From Escherichia phage vB_EcoA_4HA11, in the sequence record MN445184: DNA of 64,000 nt; one strand, 5' to 3'. The notes under the pieces were generated by a model, which saw only the letters and a list, made by a program, of their open reading frames with translations, searched no databases and was not told the origin of the DNA. The translations under genes and the position numbers were made by a program. Below are positions 37,638-62,618 of the stretch, in pieces (within the stretch, counting starts at the first letter, position 1; every line of letters starts with the position of its first letter).

Positions 37638-37645
37638 TATTTAGT
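37638..37645 (-). promoter_or_regulatory. late-promoter-like motif ACTAAATA
   Basis: About 28 nt upstream of scaffold gene ATG. Confidence 0.35.
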
Positions 37646-37655
37646 GAGCTGAATT

Positions 37656-38324
37656 TCAGCCCAGATGATTCAATGCTGCATCAAGGCGGCGCAGGAAGTC
37701 GTCTTCTACTTGAATATTGGTTTTCACCAACTGGTCTACAACTTTCCCTTTAACATCACGAGGCATCCAAATACCCGAAGCCTCATCAAGCTGCCATTCA
37801 ACAGATTCACTCACAGCCTTAACATAACAAACTTGTCCAGAAGGACGGTCGACTGCATCAACAGCGGTGAGCATAAAGCCAGGTTGAACGTCGTCATAAC
37901 CGTTTACCGACTTGGTCTCACCCAGACCACGTGTAGACACGGCCAGATTGAAGTCTGCTTCAGCCAATGCACGTATGATTTGGCCTTTTGGTGTATTTAA
38001 AATTCGCGCCCGACCGATGGCATTAGTGCCTTCCCAGAGAAGGGATTCGGTTTTGAGCGCTGCTTCCACCAGATTAGGGAAAGGATAGTCAGGATGTGTG
38101 ACTTCACCGATTGCGCGACGATCTTGGATATACTCTTTGTCGTATGCTTCGACAGCAGGAATACCCACTTTCTGCAGATCATAGTTACGCCCGTTACGGT
38201 TGACTTGGTTACACATCACAAACGGACCTTCGATGAACATGGCCTTCCCACCAGTTGAGGTTGTGACCTCACCGATTTGAAGATCCTTCCCTATCGCTGT
38301 GATCTCACGCAACAGTTTCATCAT
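37656..38324 (-). CDS. gp21: prohead core protease (gp21-like)
   Basis: MCNQVNRNGRNY, GEVTHP, STRGLG, VQPGF parallel T4 gp21 motifs. Confidence 0.85.
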   Translation of the reverse strand: MMKLLREITAIGKDLQIGEVTTSTGGKAMFIEGPFVMCNQVNRNGRNYDLQKVGIPAVEAYDKEYIQDRRAIGEVTHPDYPFPNLVEAALKTESLLWEGTNAIGRARILNTPKGQIIRALAEADFNLAVSTRGLGETKSVNGYDDVQPGFMLTAVDAVDRPSGQVCYVKAVSESVEWQLDEASGIWMPRDVKGKVVDQLVKTNIQVEDDFLRRLDAALNHLG

Positions 38325-38331
38325 AAACTCC

Positions 38332-38649
38332 TTACTTGTTCTTACTCAGTCCCATCATTTTGCGGAACTTCATAGCCTTTTTCTTGCGGCGCTCGATTTT
38401 ACGTTGATAGCCCATTCCCATACGCTTTTTAGAGCGGAGGGCTTTGCGGTTGCCGATCTTGCGAACACGACGTTCGCTGGCGTCCATAACTTCACAACGT
38501 GAACCATCAGCCGACAATTTGAACCCAGGGGCACATTTCAAGCGGCGGCGGCGTTTACCACGAGCGTTCACTTTATCGATGACTCGCTGCTCGTCCATAC
38601 GAGAGGCCAGGAAATCAGCGAACGTGGCGATCTCTGTGATTTCCATCAT
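38332..38649 (-). CDS. basic prohead core/internal protein (gp68-like position)
   Basis: Arg/Lys-rich 105-aa protein between portal and protease genes. Confidence 0.45.
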   Translation of the reverse strand: MMEITEIATFADFLASRMDEQRVIDKVNARGKRRRRLKCAPGFKLSADGSRCEVMDASERRVRKIGNRKALRSKKRMGMGYQRKIERRKKKAMKFRKMMGLSKNK

Positions 38650-38657
38650 GCATCTCC

Positions 38658-38828
38658 TTACTGGCCGTTGTTGTTTGAATTCATATCAGCTGCGATAGAA
38701 TCCAGAACATATGCTGTGCCTTGGTTTAATAGTTCTTGACTACGTGCATCAAGTTCCATGTTGCATTCTGCAACAGCAGTTTCAGTGTCACCGTCAATTA
38801 CTGCACGAACGATATCAATTGCGCTCAT
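38658..38828 (-). CDS. small acidic protein (56 aa; gp67-like position), below ORF-track cutoff
   Basis: ATG 38828..38826 MSAIDIVRAVIDGDTE...; stop followed by GGAGATGC and the next ATG. Confidence 0.35.
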   Translation of the reverse strand: MSAIDIVRAVIDGDTETAVAECNMELDARSQELLNQGTAYVLDSIAADMNSNNNGQ

Positions 38829-38855
38829 GATTTTGATCTCCGAATTAATTTTCTA

Positions 38856-38863
38856 TATTTAGT
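38856..38863 (-). promoter_or_regulatory. late-promoter-like motif ACTAAATA
   Basis: About 28 nt upstream of small ORF ATG, just past portal stop. Confidence 0.35.
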
Positions 38864-38869
38864 TGAACT

Positions 38870-60380: not shown

Positions 60381-60403
60381 AAGGATTTGCCAATATGGGG
60401 TAT
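60372..60403 (-). promoter_or_regulatory. 10-bp inverted repeat ATACCCCATA...TATGGGGTAT overlapping the ACTAAATA motif and first ATG
   Basis: Arms 60372..60381 and 60394..60403. Confidence 0.4.
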
Positions 60404-60408
60404 TTAGT
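60401..60408 (-). promoter_or_regulatory. late-promoter-like motif ACTAAATA
   Basis: Upstream of the 926-aa tailspike gene. Confidence 0.35.
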
Positions 60409-60439
60409 CTGAACTAATAAAATTTATGAACAAAGGTAT

Positions 60440-60470
60440 AATAAGAACCCCGCCAAAGCGGGGTTTTTGC
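60440..60470. terminator. terminator hairpin CCCCGC-loop-GCGGGG
   Basis: Stem 60448..60463, T-run on plus side, U-rich on minus side. Confidence 0.55.
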
Positions 60471-60480
60471 TCAAGATAAA

Positions 60481-62577
60481 TTAAAGTGTGTATGTTACAT
60501 AACTTCCATCTGGTTTTTTAGCAAGCAACCTCAATGCTCCGTCACTTCCGAAGAAGAATCCTATAGATGAATTATGTTCCAGAGCGCTCTCTGGTAATTG
60601 TAAAGGGGCAGCAGGTATACTCATATGCTTAAAGCCTAAGCGGTTAAGCTGAAACTCACCTACACGTACACCCTCCTGAATTGCCGAAAGCTTGACAATA
60701 CTTGCCTCACCCCCTGGTGTAGCAACCTGGCAATCTGCCGTCATAAGCAAAGATGGGTTTGTAGTACCACCCATAGCAGGTTGCATTGCAAGTGTCATTT
60801 GGTTGGCACTATGCTGAACATTGATATTACCTCCCTGAATATCGCTTATATAGGTACATAGTAATTTCTTAGTACCGGAACCAGCACAGGAAACATTACT
60901 TACTTCTGAAGACGGAGCGTATATAGCGTAACCTTGTGTAGTATATGCATGGATGTTAATACCACGAAGTCTACTACCTCCCTCACAGGTAAGCTGATTT
61001 AGGTTAGTTAAATCCTTATTCGCACCTACTACAGTAATGTTAGTAATATCATTGTTAGTACCCCTATCGAAGACGCCTTCCTTATGGGCCTCATAAGTAA
61101 CAACATTATCAATAATATTTTTCTGACCATCCCACCAAGCACCAATCCCCATACAATCACGAGTAATAATATTACGGATGATATGTTGAGTAGGTAGGTG
61201 GAACCATGGATACTCTGCGAGTGAGTAGTCATCCACACGTTCAGTTGGCGACCCTGTGTCAGCATTAACATCAATACCATCATAGTAACACTGGATTGTA
61301 GTTATATTGTCGAACACTAAACGGTAGTTCCTGGCTGAACGACCTCCAATTTCGTTCTGATAGGTTTTAATACCTGATTCTCCAACACGGTATGAGATTA
61401 AATCCCTTACTCCACCATCATGGTCTGTACCACCATCATTGCGAATGAACAGTACAGCGGAACCAGAGCCATATTTTATCTCACCCCCAACAACCCAGTT
61501 GCCAGTACCCCATGCAGTTGTATGATGGTTCTCAAATGTAATGCCCGATTCCAAAGCAATAAAATTGCGTGGATTCTTAACAAGAATCCTATTACATAAA
61601 GTAAATAGATAACCACCAAATGTAGCTTCTGGGTTCTCTACGATGATATTATCGCCGCTCATTATTCGCAAAGTAGCACCAGCAACCTGATTTTTTACAT
61701 TATCAGGAAGGTCGTCCCAAATATCTAAATCGTTAATATTTGGCTTATATCCAACATCCAAACGCTGCTGAACAGATGCCAGAACTTGTGTTGGGTCTGT
61801 AACCCAATTACCGTTTGCATCGAATCGGTAAACAGTATACGGCGTAGTTTTAGTATGCATGTGCGGTTTCTTAATTACTGAACCCGCACCCAAACCATTC
61901 CAAACCAACATACCATCGCCAATGAATTTTCCTTTGCATTCAATGATTAAAACTTTACCGCTAAAATCTACATTCTCATCTGCAGTAAAAGTGTAGTCAA
62001 CATCAATAAGCAATCCATCTACGGCTGCTGTCGCTGCATCCTGTAATGTAGAATAATCAGATAACTTTACTGAATATTTGAATTTCTTATTAGCTTCCTG
62101 CCTAAATGCAGCATCACCAACACTAACCCAAGCACCTAAACCAACGCCACCAGTTGATGCTGGAGTTGAACCAGCAGGAACAACTTTAGGTAATGCACCA
62201 TCCCATCGATATTTTTCATCATCGTGAACAAGAAGTTCATTTTTCACATTAATAGTATGGCCGAAATTAAAAGAACCAGGTAAAGTCACATATTCTTCGC
62301 GGCTTACTGCTAATTCCCCGAGATCAACAGAGCCAGAAGAATGAGTAAGGATGGCTTGTTCGTTCAGACTTATCGCAGTCGTTCCTGAAACAATACCTGA
62401 AGGAAGAGAATAAGCCCGTTGGGTAGACTCATCATAAATTACTTTAAATCCGCTGAGATCAATACCGACAGTGAAATAAATGACTTCGTCTTCTTTGACA
62501 CCGAAATTTCGAGCGATAGATTGTTTGTTAACTTCTATGGAAGTGGAGCCGCGTGGTTGATTGAATTGAGAAATCAT
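60481..62577 (-). CDS. tailspike protein (698 aa)
   Basis: N-terminal module shared with the 770-aa tailspike; remainder divergent. Confidence 0.7.
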   Translation of the reverse strand: MISQFNQPRGSTSIEVNKQSIARNFGVKEDEVIYFTVGIDLSGFKVIYDESTQRAYSLPSGIVSGTTAISLNEQAILTHSSGSVDLGELAVSREEYVTLPGSFNFGHTINVKNELLVHDDEKYRWDGALPKVVPAGSTPASTGGVGLGAWVSVGDAAFRQEANKKFKYSVKLSDYSTLQDAATAAVDGLLIDVDYTFTADENVDFSGKVLIIECKGKFIGDGMLVWNGLGAGSVIKKPHMHTKTTPYTVYRFDANGNWVTDPTQVLASVQQRLDVGYKPNINDLDIWDDLPDNVKNQVAGATLRIMSGDNIIVENPEATFGGYLFTLCNRILVKNPRNFIALESGITFENHHTTAWGTGNWVVGGEIKYGSGSAVLFIRNDGGTDHDGGVRDLISYRVGESGIKTYQNEIGGRSARNYRLVFDNITTIQCYYDGIDVNADTGSPTERVDDYSLAEYPWFHLPTQHIIRNIITRDCMGIGAWWDGQKNIIDNVVTYEAHKEGVFDRGTNNDITNITVVGANKDLTNLNQLTCEGGSRLRGINIHAYTTQGYAIYAPSSEVSNVSCAGSGTKKLLCTYISDIQGGNINVQHSANQMTLAMQPAMGGTTNPSLLMTADCQVATPGGEASIVKLSAIQEGVRVGEFQLNRLGFKHMSIPAAPLQLPESALEHNSSIGFFFGSDGALRLLAKKPDGSYVTYTL
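62098..62577 (-). repeat. N-terminal tailspike module, paralogous copy B
   Basis: Similar to 57069..57548. Confidence 0.7.
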
Positions 62578-62581
62578 GATA

Positions 62582-62613
62582 ATACCCCATAAAGGATGAC
62601 CAATATGGGGTAT
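62582..62613 (-). promoter_or_regulatory. 10-bp inverted repeat ATACCCCATA...TATGGGGTAT overlapping ACTAAATA motif
   Basis: Arms 62582..62591 and 62604..62613; GGGG of the 3' arm is the only SD-like element before ATG 62577. Confidence 0.4.
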
Positions 62614-62618
62614 TTAGT
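62611..62618 (-). promoter_or_regulatory. late-promoter-like motif ACTAAATA
   Basis: Upstream of the 698-aa tailspike gene. Confidence 0.35.

What the first reader, a model, noticed from the sequence alone, without database searches (positions are those of the whole stretch)
37638..62618. Recurrent ACTAAATA-like motif 25-45 nt upstream of structural genes, usually just after a terminator
On the coding (minus) strand the 8-mer ACTAAATA occurs upstream of the scaffold gene (37638), the small core ORF (38856), sheath (43637), neck gene (47888), the 1612-aa gene (55175) and two tailspike genes (60401, 62611). One-mismatch variants precede the capsid (36719, ACTAAGTA) and portal (40577, ACTAATTA) genes. 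A random 8-mer is expected about once per strand in 64 kb. The motif resembles the T4 late promoter TATAAATA, and a gp55-like sigma factor and gp45 clamp are encoded in the window.
Basis: partly seen in the sequence, partly recalled or inferred. Interest (0 to 1): 0.55.

Follow-up and report, generated by a model that had tools for sequence, protein, structure and literature searches.

The report
Late-gene promoter box of a ViI-like phage
The repeated ACTAAATA box is real and is almost certainly the late-gene promoter of this Salmonella ViI-like (Kuttervirus) phage, a motif already described for the family, so the finding is correct but not new.

Summary
ACTAAATA occurs 8 times, always on the minus (coding) strand and always between genes, against 1.8 expected. 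An unbiased k-mer scan ranks CTAAATA/ACTAAATA first among words enriched upstream of gene starts, in the window and in the whole genome of the relative GG32. The window is a Kuttervirus (Ackermannviridae). The box sits 22-42 nt before late genes and is conserved at orthologous sites in four other Ackermannviridae lineages. It has no -35 partner, C at -12, and A enriched at the predicted +1. gp55-like and gp45-like genes lie in the window; gp33 lies elsewhere in the relative's genome.

[quoted passage not shown] The same variant was found in silico in Aeromonas phage Aeh1. No transcript 5'-end mapping was found.

Only about 4-5 of 12 sites follow a terminator. One-mismatch matches as a class are at chance.

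One added result: in most sites the bases right after the box form the 5' arm of a hairpin that pairs with the ribosome-binding site. T4 does this at genes e, 49 and segB, but here it is the rule.

The parts
37638..37645 (-). ACTAAATA late-promoter box, 28 nt before the prohead scaffold gene (36770-37609)
38856..38863 (-). ACTAAATA box, 27 nt before the small 56-aa head-core ORF (38658-38828)
43637..43644 (-). ACTAAATA box, 42 nt before the tail sheath ATG (43594). The following hairpin (43603-43636) pairs tctttc with gaagga.
47888..47895 (-). ACTAAATA box, 24 nt before the neck gene gp14 (47222-47863). This is the diverged copy that came with the endonuclease cassette. It lies back-to-back with a plus-strand TAAATA (47882-47887) 34 nt before the endonuclease ATG.
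48660..48667 (-). ACTAAATA box of the original gp14 promoter, now followed only by 7 codons and a stop (orphaned).
55175..55182 (-). ACTAAATA box, 32 nt before the 1612-aa virion gene (50304-55142), downstream of the terminator at 55214-55229
60401..60408 (-). ACTAAATAcccc box, 35 nt before the tail fibre/spike gene ATG (60365). Terminator at 60446-60465; hairpin at 60375-60400 (ccccata/tatgggg).
62611..62618 (-). ACTAAATAcccc box, 33 nt before the tailspike gene (60481-62577). Terminator at 62657-62676; hairpin at 62585-62610.
36719..36726 (-). ACTAAGTA variant, 40 nt before the major capsid gene (35356-36678), 13 nt after the terminator at 36739-36756. The Serratia ortholog has cacTAAATA.
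40578..40585 (-). ACTAATTA variant, 25 nt before the portal gene (38870-40552). The Serratia and Vibrio orthologs have cacTAAATA and tacTAAATA.
41185..41192 (-). ACTAATTA variant, 31 nt before the tail-tube gene (40620-41153), overlapping the stop of a GIY-YIG endonuclease ORF. The Serratia ortholog has gcTAAATA.
28738..28745 (-). GCTAAATA box, 23 nt before the UvsW-type helicase gene (27212-28714). The hairpin at 28722-28737 pairs ctcca with tgggg.
31914..31921 (-). TATAAATAccccc box (T4-like spelling), 22 nt before a 242-aa gene (31163-31891). Hairpin at 31898-31913.
4125..4931 (-). gp55-family late sigma factor gene
   Evidence: phrog_234, E=1.7e-53
25834..26517 (-). gp45-type sliding clamp gene
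   Evidence: phrog_223, E=1.6e-65

Best explanation
The window is part of a Kuttervirus (ViI-like, Ackermannviridae) Salmonella phage genome. (a)CTAAATA is its late promoter: a -10-like box at about -13 to -6, read by host RNA polymerase core carrying the phage gp55-family sigma. By analogy with T4, gp33 and the gp45 sliding clamp would assist, so that virion and lysis genes are transcribed only once DNA replication is under way. It is the same spelling variant (a/g-C at -13/-12 instead of T-A) as the predicted late promoter of Aeromonas phage Aeh1, and it is the published Viunalikevirus motif CTAAATAcCcc.

Shown here: the statistics, strand and position of the box; its conservation across genera; the absence of a -35 element; and the presence of gp55 and gp45 genes.

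Inferred: that it is bound by gp55-polymerase; that transcription starts about 6 nt downstream; and that expression is late.

A second layer, also inferred from sequence: at most sites the nucleotides directly after the box are the 5' arm of a hairpin whose 3' arm contains the Shine-Dalgarno sequence. Transcripts reading through from upstream would hide the ribosome-binding site. Transcripts started at the box would lack the arm and be translated. T4 does this at genes e, 49, soc and I-TevI. This would account for the 'cCcc' tail of the published motif.
For: Statistics
- 8 exact copies, all on the coding strand and all intergenic, against 1.83 expected.
- In an unbiased k-mer scan of the region 12-70 nt upstream of gene starts, ACTAAATA (7 of 8, p=1.4e-10) and CTAAATA (8 of 11, p=9e-11) rank first in the window. 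In the whole GG32 genome, CTAAATA gives 15 of 24 (p=2e-16) and CTAAATAC 10 of 10.

Identity of the genome
- 98% DNA identity to Kuttervirus phages; GG32 taxonomy.

Genes served
- Scaffold, core, sheath, neck, the 1612-aa virion protein and the tailspikes in the window.
- In GG32 also gp6, gp48, gp26, gp5, gp2, endolysin, the RuvC-like resolvase and the UvsW-type helicase.

Conservation
- cTAAATA is kept at orthologous sites in Taipeivirus, Miltonvirus, a Vibrio relative and Limestonevirus while the flanks diverge.
- The Serratia phage has canonical boxes where the window has TAAGTA or TAATTA.

Logo of 25 sites
- C at -12 in 18 of 25, never G.
- No information upstream (at most 0.25 bit per position).
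- G nearly absent from -5 to -1.
- A in 17 of 25 at the sixth nt after the box, which is T4's +1.

Factors
- gp55 family: phrog_234, E=1.7e-53. It aligns with T4, Aeh1 and cyanophage gp55 with Y10, M71, F86, D87 and N93 invariant.
- gp45 family.
- gp33 is annotated in GG32 outside the window.

Literature
- Aeh1 CTAAATA from -12 (PMC1524935; PMC2988020).
- 'CTAAATAcCcc' listed as a regulatory motif (PMC7283392).

Hairpin layer
- Nt 1-2 after the box pair with the Shine-Dalgarno window in 9 of 11 window sites (controls 16%, p=4.6e-6).
- The same holds in 16 of 24 GG32 sites (p=1.3e-7), 5 of 7 Klebsiella-phage sites (p=0.004) and 10 of 16 Dickeya-phage sites (p=4.5e-4).
- Sliding the register gives a peak exactly at 0.
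- The same test on T4 recovers the experimentally known cases e, 49 and segB (precedent in PMC3014915 and PMC2988022).
Against: - There are no transcript 5'-end data for any Ackermannviridae phage in the searchable literature. Promoter activity, start site and timing are therefore inferred.
- The source paper for the family motif (Adriaenssens 2012, PMC4174289) could not be read. I know its claim only from two citing papers and from memory.
- The NanoLuc construct sits downstream of the capsid gene, so read-through could contribute to its expression.
- gp33 is not in the window.
- gp55 is only 18% identical to T4 gp55, with no Pfam or PDB sequence hit.
- No residue change in the T4 -12 pocket is shared by the phages that use C at -12, so the basis of the altered specificity is unexplained.
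- The most highly expressed genes (capsid, portal, tube) carry imperfect boxes.
- The hairpin layer is weak or absent in the Serratia (4 of 10, not significant) and Vibrio (0 of 3) relatives.
Confidence: 0.85

Rival explanations
1. The box acts in RNA rather than DNA. It would be a 5'-UTR element such as an endoribonuclease processing site, a RegA-type translational operator or a stability signal shared by late mRNAs.
For: It lies in the leader region of the genes. The phage encodes a RegA-like repressor (GG32 annotation). The box directly abuts RNA hairpins.
Against: - Distance to the start codon varies from 22 to 49 nt. Translational operators overlap the ribosome-binding site.
- The sequence is the T4/Aeh1 late -10 box.
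- A is enriched at exactly the T4 +1 distance, and there is no constraint upstream.
- At three sites the box follows a strong terminator by 32-39 nt, where little upstream RNA would arrive.
Confidence: 0.05
2. It is a -10 element of ordinary host sigma-70 promoters, possibly with a weak -35.
For: TAAATA is A/T-rich and loosely resembles TATAAT.
Against: - The sigma-70 scan scores none of the boxes as the -10 of a promoter-like hit. The single weak hit near 37638 uses other hexamers.
- There is no information at -35.
- The last base is A, where sigma-70 needs T.
- A separate motif, TTCAAT..TATAAT, marks the early region (PMC7283392).
Confidence: 0.04
3. The recurrence is a by-product of duplicated intergenic cassettes rather than selection on the 8-mer.
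For: The spacers at 60381-60480 and 62578-62680 are nearly identical over about 100 nt. Sites 47888 and 48660 are two copies of one promoter region.
Against: - The other sites share nothing but the box.
- The box is conserved across genera while the flanks change.
- Genome-wide enrichment in GG32 comes from many unrelated spacers on both strands.
Confidence: 0.03
4. It is the binding site of a phage DNA-binding regulator other than a sigma factor, for example a late activator or repressor, or an anti-termination signal placed after terminators.
For: Some sites follow terminators. The phage encodes small DNA-binding proteins (GG32 annotation).
Against: - Most sites have no terminator.
- The box is asymmetric, short, and at a fixed distance from an A-rich start region, like a -10 element.
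- A gp55-family sigma whose relatives read the almost identical TATAAATA is present.
Confidence: 0.03

Closest known systems
Bacteriophage T4 late promoter TATAAATA (gp55/gp33/gp45 system)
   Same: An 8-bp A/T-rich box at -13 to -6 with no -35 element. It lies upstream of virion and lysis genes. A gp55-family sigma and a sliding clamp are encoded. Six of the 8 positions (TAAATA) are identical. One site in the window (31914) is spelled exactly TATAAATA.
   Different: Positions -13/-12 are a-C instead of T-A. In T4, A(-12) is flipped into a gp55 pocket (PMC7892883). gp55 here is only 18% identical, is longer, and carries an extra C-terminal tail. Activity has not been shown experimentally.
Predicted late promoter of Aeromonas phage Aeh1, CTAAATA starting at -12 (Nolan et al. 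2006, PMC1524935)
   Same: Identical spelling, including C as the strong determinant at -12 and a/g at -13. It was found the same way, upstream of orthologs of T4 late genes.
   Different: Aeh1 is a Straboviridae phage. Its gp55 keeps T4's H95 and Y97 and is no closer to the Kuttervirus protein in the known pocket residues. The shared spelling may therefore be convergent or ancestral.
Viunalikevirus/Ackermannviridae conserved motif CTAAATAcCcc (Adriaenssens et al. 2012, cited in PMC7283392 and PMC9965104)
   Same: The same motif in the same phage family. The window's boxes are instances of it.
   Different: Nothing essential. In the window the 'cCcc' tail is present at only 3-4 of 12 sites. 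The source paper was not readable here.
T4 genes e, 49, soc, I-TevI and segB, and Aeh1 mobE: a late promoter that encodes the 5' strand of a hairpin sequestering the ribosome-binding site (PMC3014915, PMC2988022)
   Same: The hairpin's 5' arm begins at the first nucleotide after the box and the 3' arm holds the Shine-Dalgarno sequence. My test recovers T4 e, 49 and segB with the same geometry. In GG32 and the Dickeya phage, the endolysin and the resolvase (functional counterparts of e and 49) have it.
   Different: In T4 it is a minority feature (8 of 29 sites, not above background). In Kuttervirus, Taipeivirus and Limestonevirus it holds for about two thirds of sites, including genes inside the late cluster.

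Membership tests
T4-type late promoter (gp55-dependent) | Short A/T-rich -10-like box related to TATAAATA | tested here: met
   TAAATA is identical at 6 of 8 positions. It is the top-ranked upstream k-mer.
T4-type late promoter (gp55-dependent) | Exact T4 consensus T(-13)A(-12) | tested here: not met
   C at -12 in 18 of 25 sites and A at -13 in 11 of 25. This is a spelling variant, as in Aeh1.
T4-type late promoter (gp55-dependent) | No conserved -35 element | tested here: met
   Information is at most 0.25 bit at every position from -56 to -14. The boxes give no sigma-70-like hits.
T4-type late promoter (gp55-dependent) | Lies 5' of late (virion, lysis, late recombination) genes on the coding strand | tested here: met
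   with GG32 annotation.
T4-type late promoter (gp55-dependent) | Phage encodes gp55, gp33 and gp45 homologs | tested here: met
   gp55 and gp45 are in the window. gp33 is not in the window but is annotated in the 98%-identical relative GG32.
T4-type late promoter (gp55-dependent) | Transcription starts about 6 nt downstream, late in infection, and depends on gp55 and replication | not testable with these tools
   The only indirect sign is A in 17 of 25 sites at the predicted +1. No 5'-end mapping paper was found.
Ackermannviridae motif CTAAATAcCcc | Sequence CTAAATA in intergenic DNA of an Ackermannviridae genome | tested here: met
   motif quoted in PMC7283392.
Ackermannviridae motif CTAAATAcCcc | C-rich tail cCcc after the box | tested here: inconclusive
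   Present at 60401, 62611 and 31914, and partly at 28738. Other sites have t/c-rich tails instead. C is the commonest base at -5 and -4.
Aeh1-type late promoter | C at -12 with a/g at -13 | tested here: met
   One search compared with PMC1524935 and PMC2988020.
Promoter-embedded hairpin sequestering the Shine-Dalgarno sequence (T4 e/49/soc/I-TevI type) | The 5' strand of the helix starts at the late promoter and the 3' strand contains the Shine-Dalgarno sequence | tested here: met
   9 of 11 window sites and 16 of 24 GG32 sites, with a register peak at 0. T4 e, 49 and segB are recovered as positive controls.
Promoter-embedded hairpin sequestering the Shine-Dalgarno sequence (T4 e/49/soc/I-TevI type) | Late transcripts lack the 5' strand, and read-through transcripts exist and are poorly translated | not testable with these tools
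   Needs 5'-end mapping and translation assays.

The most novel reading that the evidence does not exclude
In Kuttervirus, Taipeivirus and Limestonevirus, the late promoter box is fused, as a rule rather than an exception, to the 5' arm of a hairpin that hides the ribosome-binding site. About two thirds of late genes would then be translatable only from transcripts that start at their own late promoter. This is a genome-wide version of the device T4 uses at e, 49, soc and the intron endonucleases. It would explain the 'cCcc' tail of the family motif as an anti-Shine-Dalgarno arm rather than a promoter contact.
Probability: 0.3. Interest if true: 0.5.

Novelty: already known. Interest (0 to 1): 0.25.

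Why it matters
For annotation, the box gives a ready map of late transcription units in this and related phages, which are widely used for biocontrol and as reporter phages. It also justifies using the box as a late expression signal in engineered phages.

Biologically, these phages read C at -12 where T4 gp55 flips an adenine into a pocket. That makes them a natural specificity variant for structural work on gp55.

The promoter-hairpin fusion, if confirmed, would show that coupling of translation to promoter choice is a general design of late gene control in this family. It would also matter for anyone inserting payload genes behind these promoters.

Tried and rejected
- gp55 pocket idea: I expected the A-to-C change at -12 to be explained by T4 gp55 Y97 becoming W (with H95 becoming F) in the -12 and -9 pockets. 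The 8-sequence alignment rejects this. Aeh1 and Vibrio phage K395 also use cTAAATA yet keep Y at that position. R57 is kept here but is H in Aeh1.
- Sequence search of solved structures and Pfam/NCBIfam with the gp55-like protein gave nothing. Only PHROGs, tblastn to cyanophage gp55 and the alignment place it in the family.
- Counting one-mismatch variants as a class gives chance level, so that is not evidence.
- A first duplex-energy test of the hairpin idea was significant in GG32, the window and the Klebsiella phage, but not in the Serratia or Vibrio loci. I replaced it with a stricter register test that was calibrated on T4.
- An IMG/VR search with a single protein returned only near-identical Kutterviruses, which are useless for covariation.
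- The 2012 taxonomy paper could not be opened by DOI or PMC id, nor could the T4 genome review.
- A literature search for Ackermannviridae transcript start mapping found nothing relevant. The 2024 family review does not mention promoters at all.

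
Full report
**1. The observation**

A search for ACTAAATA on both strands finds 8 exact copies, all on the minus strand. They are at 37638, 38856, 43637, 47888, 48660, 55175, 60401 and 62611. Dinucleotide-preserving shuffles give a mean of 1.83 and never more than 5. With a simple gene map (74 ORFs, 63 on the minus strand, 95% coding), all 8 copies fall in intergenic DNA.

The shorter CTAAATA occurs 11 times, 10 of them on the minus strand. It adds a site at 28738, before a UvsW-type helicase gene. 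Two T4-spelled TATAAATA boxes sit at 31914 and 32125.

- In the window, ACTAAATA (7 of 8, p=1.4e-10), CTAAATA (8 of 11, p=9e-11) and TAAATA rank first.
- In the complete genome of the relative GG32, CTAAATA (15 of 24, p=2e-16) and CTAAATAC (10 of 10) rank first.

The one-mismatch variants exist. A third, ACTAATTA at 41185, precedes the tail-tube gene. As a class, however, one-mismatch matches are at chance: 54 found against 56.6 expected.

'Usually after a terminator' is only partly true. Strong terminator-like hairpins precede the sites at 62611, 60401, 55175 and 36719, and a weak one precedes 40578. Five exact sites have none.

**2. What the sequence is**

Ten kilobases of the window are 96-98% identical to Salmonella phages of the genus Kuttervirus (Ackermannviridae, the former ViI-like phages). 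I fetched the annotated genome of Salmonella phage GG32 as a reference.

Window 4125-4931 (minus strand) matches the PHROG family of late sigma factors (phrog_234, E=1.7e-53). Window 25834-26517 (minus strand) matches the sliding clamp family (phrog_223).

The sigma has no Pfam, NCBIfam or PDB sequence hit and is only 18% identical to T4 gp55. Even so, tblastn reaches cyanophage gp55 genes. An alignment with T4, Aeh1, a cyanophage, Stenotrophomonas and Vibrio phages, and Dickeya phage proteins keeps Y10, M71, F86, D87, N93 and F106 invariant. gp33 is annotated in GG32 outside the part that corresponds to the window.

**3. Evidence that the box is the late promoter**

*The genes served are late genes.* In the window these are the scaffold, a small core protein, the sheath, the neck protein, the 1612-aa virion protein and the tail spikes. 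In the rest of GG32 they are baseplate proteins gp6, gp48, gp26 and gp5, the end protector gp2, the endolysin, a RuvC-like resolvase and the UvsW-type helicase.

*The box is conserved at orthologous positions while the flanks diverge.* This holds in a Klebsiella Taipeivirus, a Serratia Miltonvirus, a Vibrio relative and a Dickeya Limestonevirus. The Serratia phage has canonical cacTAAATA before its capsid and portal genes and gcTAAATA before its tube gene. This is what supports the three imperfect boxes in the window.

*A logo of 25 sites shows a -10-type element.*
- C at -12 in 18 sites, never G.
- A weak A at -13.
- No information at any upstream position, so no -35 element.
- Pyrimidines at -5 and -4, and almost no G from -5 to -1.
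- A in 17 of 25 sites at the sixth nucleotide after the box. That is where T4 late transcripts start if the box occupies -13 to -6 (numbering from PMC1524935).

*None of the boxes scores as a sigma-70 promoter*.

**4. What is known**

The CBA120 paper of 2011 stated that the late promoter of the ViI family had not been identified (PMC3184105). The AG3 paper searched with TATAAATA.

[quoted passage not shown] I could not open the 2012 paper itself.

Independently, Nolan et al. 2006 found CTAAATA starting at -12 as the late promoter consensus of Aeromonas phage Aeh1. They found C at -12 to be a strong determinant and the Aeh1 gp55 to be diverged (PMC1524935). The T4 late transcription review repeats this as 'a/gC at positions -13/-12 in place of TA' (PMC2988020).

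I found no transcript 5'-end mapping for any member of the family.

**5. A mechanistic idea that failed**

In the T4 late initiation complex, the adenine at -12 is flipped into a deep gp55 pocket and stacks on Y97 (PMC7892883). The Kuttervirus protein has W at the aligned position and F for H95. I thought this might explain the preference for C.

The wider alignment rejects it. Aeh1 and Vibrio phage K395, which also use cTAAATA, keep Y there. No pocket residue is changed in common.

**6. An added feature**

At many sites, the bases directly after TAAATA are complementary to the Shine-Dalgarno region 8-12 nt before the ATG. Examples are:
- ccccata/tatgggg at both tailspike genes
- cccccaa/ttggggg at 31914
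- ctcca/tgggg at 28738
- tctttc/gaagga at the sheath gene
- ccttcaa/ttgaggg at the old neck promoter
- ctctata/tatggag at 55175

In GG32 the endolysin (ccttcgc/gcggagg) and the resolvase (cccataac/gttatggg) show the same arrangement.

I folded the stretch from the end of the box to the start codon. I then asked whether nucleotide 1 or 2 pairs with the Shine-Dalgarno window in the minimum-energy fold. Controls were other genes at matched distances.

| Genome | Sites positive | Controls | p |
|---|---|---|---|
| Window | 9 of 11 | 16% | 4.6e-6 |
| GG32 (whole genome) | 16 of 24 | 17% | 1.3e-7 |
| Klebsiella phage | 5 of 7 | 18% | 0.004 |
| Dickeya phage | 10 of 16 | 21% | 4.5e-4 |
| Serratia phage | 4 of 10 | 22% | not significant |
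| Vibrio phage | 0 of 3 | 23% | not significant |

Sliding the start of the folded stretch by -8 to +8 nt gives 1, 3, 7, 11, 16, 11, 6, 3, 1 positives in GG32. The arm is therefore locked to the end of the box. Shuffling the arm removes the signal: 0 of 500 shuffles reach the observed value.

The arms differ between sites and between genera while staying complementary. For example, the UvsW-gene arm is ctcca/tgggg here and tccca/tggga in the Dickeya phage.

The same test on T4 gives 8 of 29 sites, not above background. The strong hits are gene 49, gene e and segB. In exactly these cases, published work shows that early read-through RNA hides the ribosome-binding site and that late transcripts start inside the structure and are translated (PMC3014915; PMC2988022).

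The geometry here is thus the T4 geometry, but it is the rule rather than the exception. It also offers a reason for the 'cCcc' tail of the family motif. Whether late transcripts really lack the arm depends on the unmapped start site.

**7. Verdict**

The feature is already known for this phage family and for Aeh1, so interest is low. The one result that may go beyond the literature I could read is the generality of the promoter-hairpin fusion. It needs 5'-end mapping and translation assays.

Noticed in passing
window 28722-28737, 31898-31913, 37622-37637, 43603-43636, 48644-48659, 55150-55173, 60375-60400, 62585-62610: Hairpins whose 5' arm starts at the first or second nucleotide after the TAAATA box and whose 3' arm covers or abuts the Shine-Dalgarno sequence. 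The arrangement is significant, locked to that register, and replicated in GG32 and in Klebsiella and Dickeya relatives. T4 genes e, 49 and segB are recovered as positive controls.
   Followed up: yes
window 47864-48707: A plus-strand endonuclease gene (47922-48632; PHROG endonuclease, Pfam T5orf172/CapR) is inserted just inside the 5' end of the neck gene gp14. It is present in only about 40 of 192 matching phage records. The original promoter plus 7 codons is left orphaned at 48612-48707, and the cassette supplies a diverged promoter and a recoded 5' end at 47888. The two opposed hexamers form the palindrome TAAATATATTTA (47882-47893), which may be a divergent late promoter pair.
   Followed up: partly
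window 41184-41642 and 41185-41192: The candidate promoter box for the tail-tube gene overlaps the stop codon of a GIY-YIG homing endonuclease ORF. This resembles T4 cases where promoters of essential genes are embedded in endonuclease genes.
   Followed up: no
window 60381-60480 and 62578-62680: The spacers before two tailspike genes are nearly identical cassettes of terminator, promoter box and hairpin. They could serve as recombination anchors for swapping tailspike modules.
   Followed up: no
window 8434-8480, 14424-14553, 17324-17446, 21190-21285, 33407-33509: Spacers in the replication and early gene region carry TTCAAT(A)...TATAAT-like boxes, often after terminators. This is the second published family motif, presumably early or middle promoters. 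TTCAATA(A) is also enriched upstream of genes in GG32.
   Followed up: partly
window 4125-4931 (protein residues about 235-268): The gp55-like protein continues for about 30 residues beyond the C-terminal motif that aligns with the T4 clamp-binding end. The Dickeya homolog lacks this tail.
   Followed up: no
window 36719, 40578, 41185: The three genes expected to be among the most highly expressed (capsid, portal, tube) have imperfect boxes (TAAGTA, TAATTA) and no hairpin over the ribosome-binding site. The Serratia relative has perfect boxes at the same places.
   Followed up: partly
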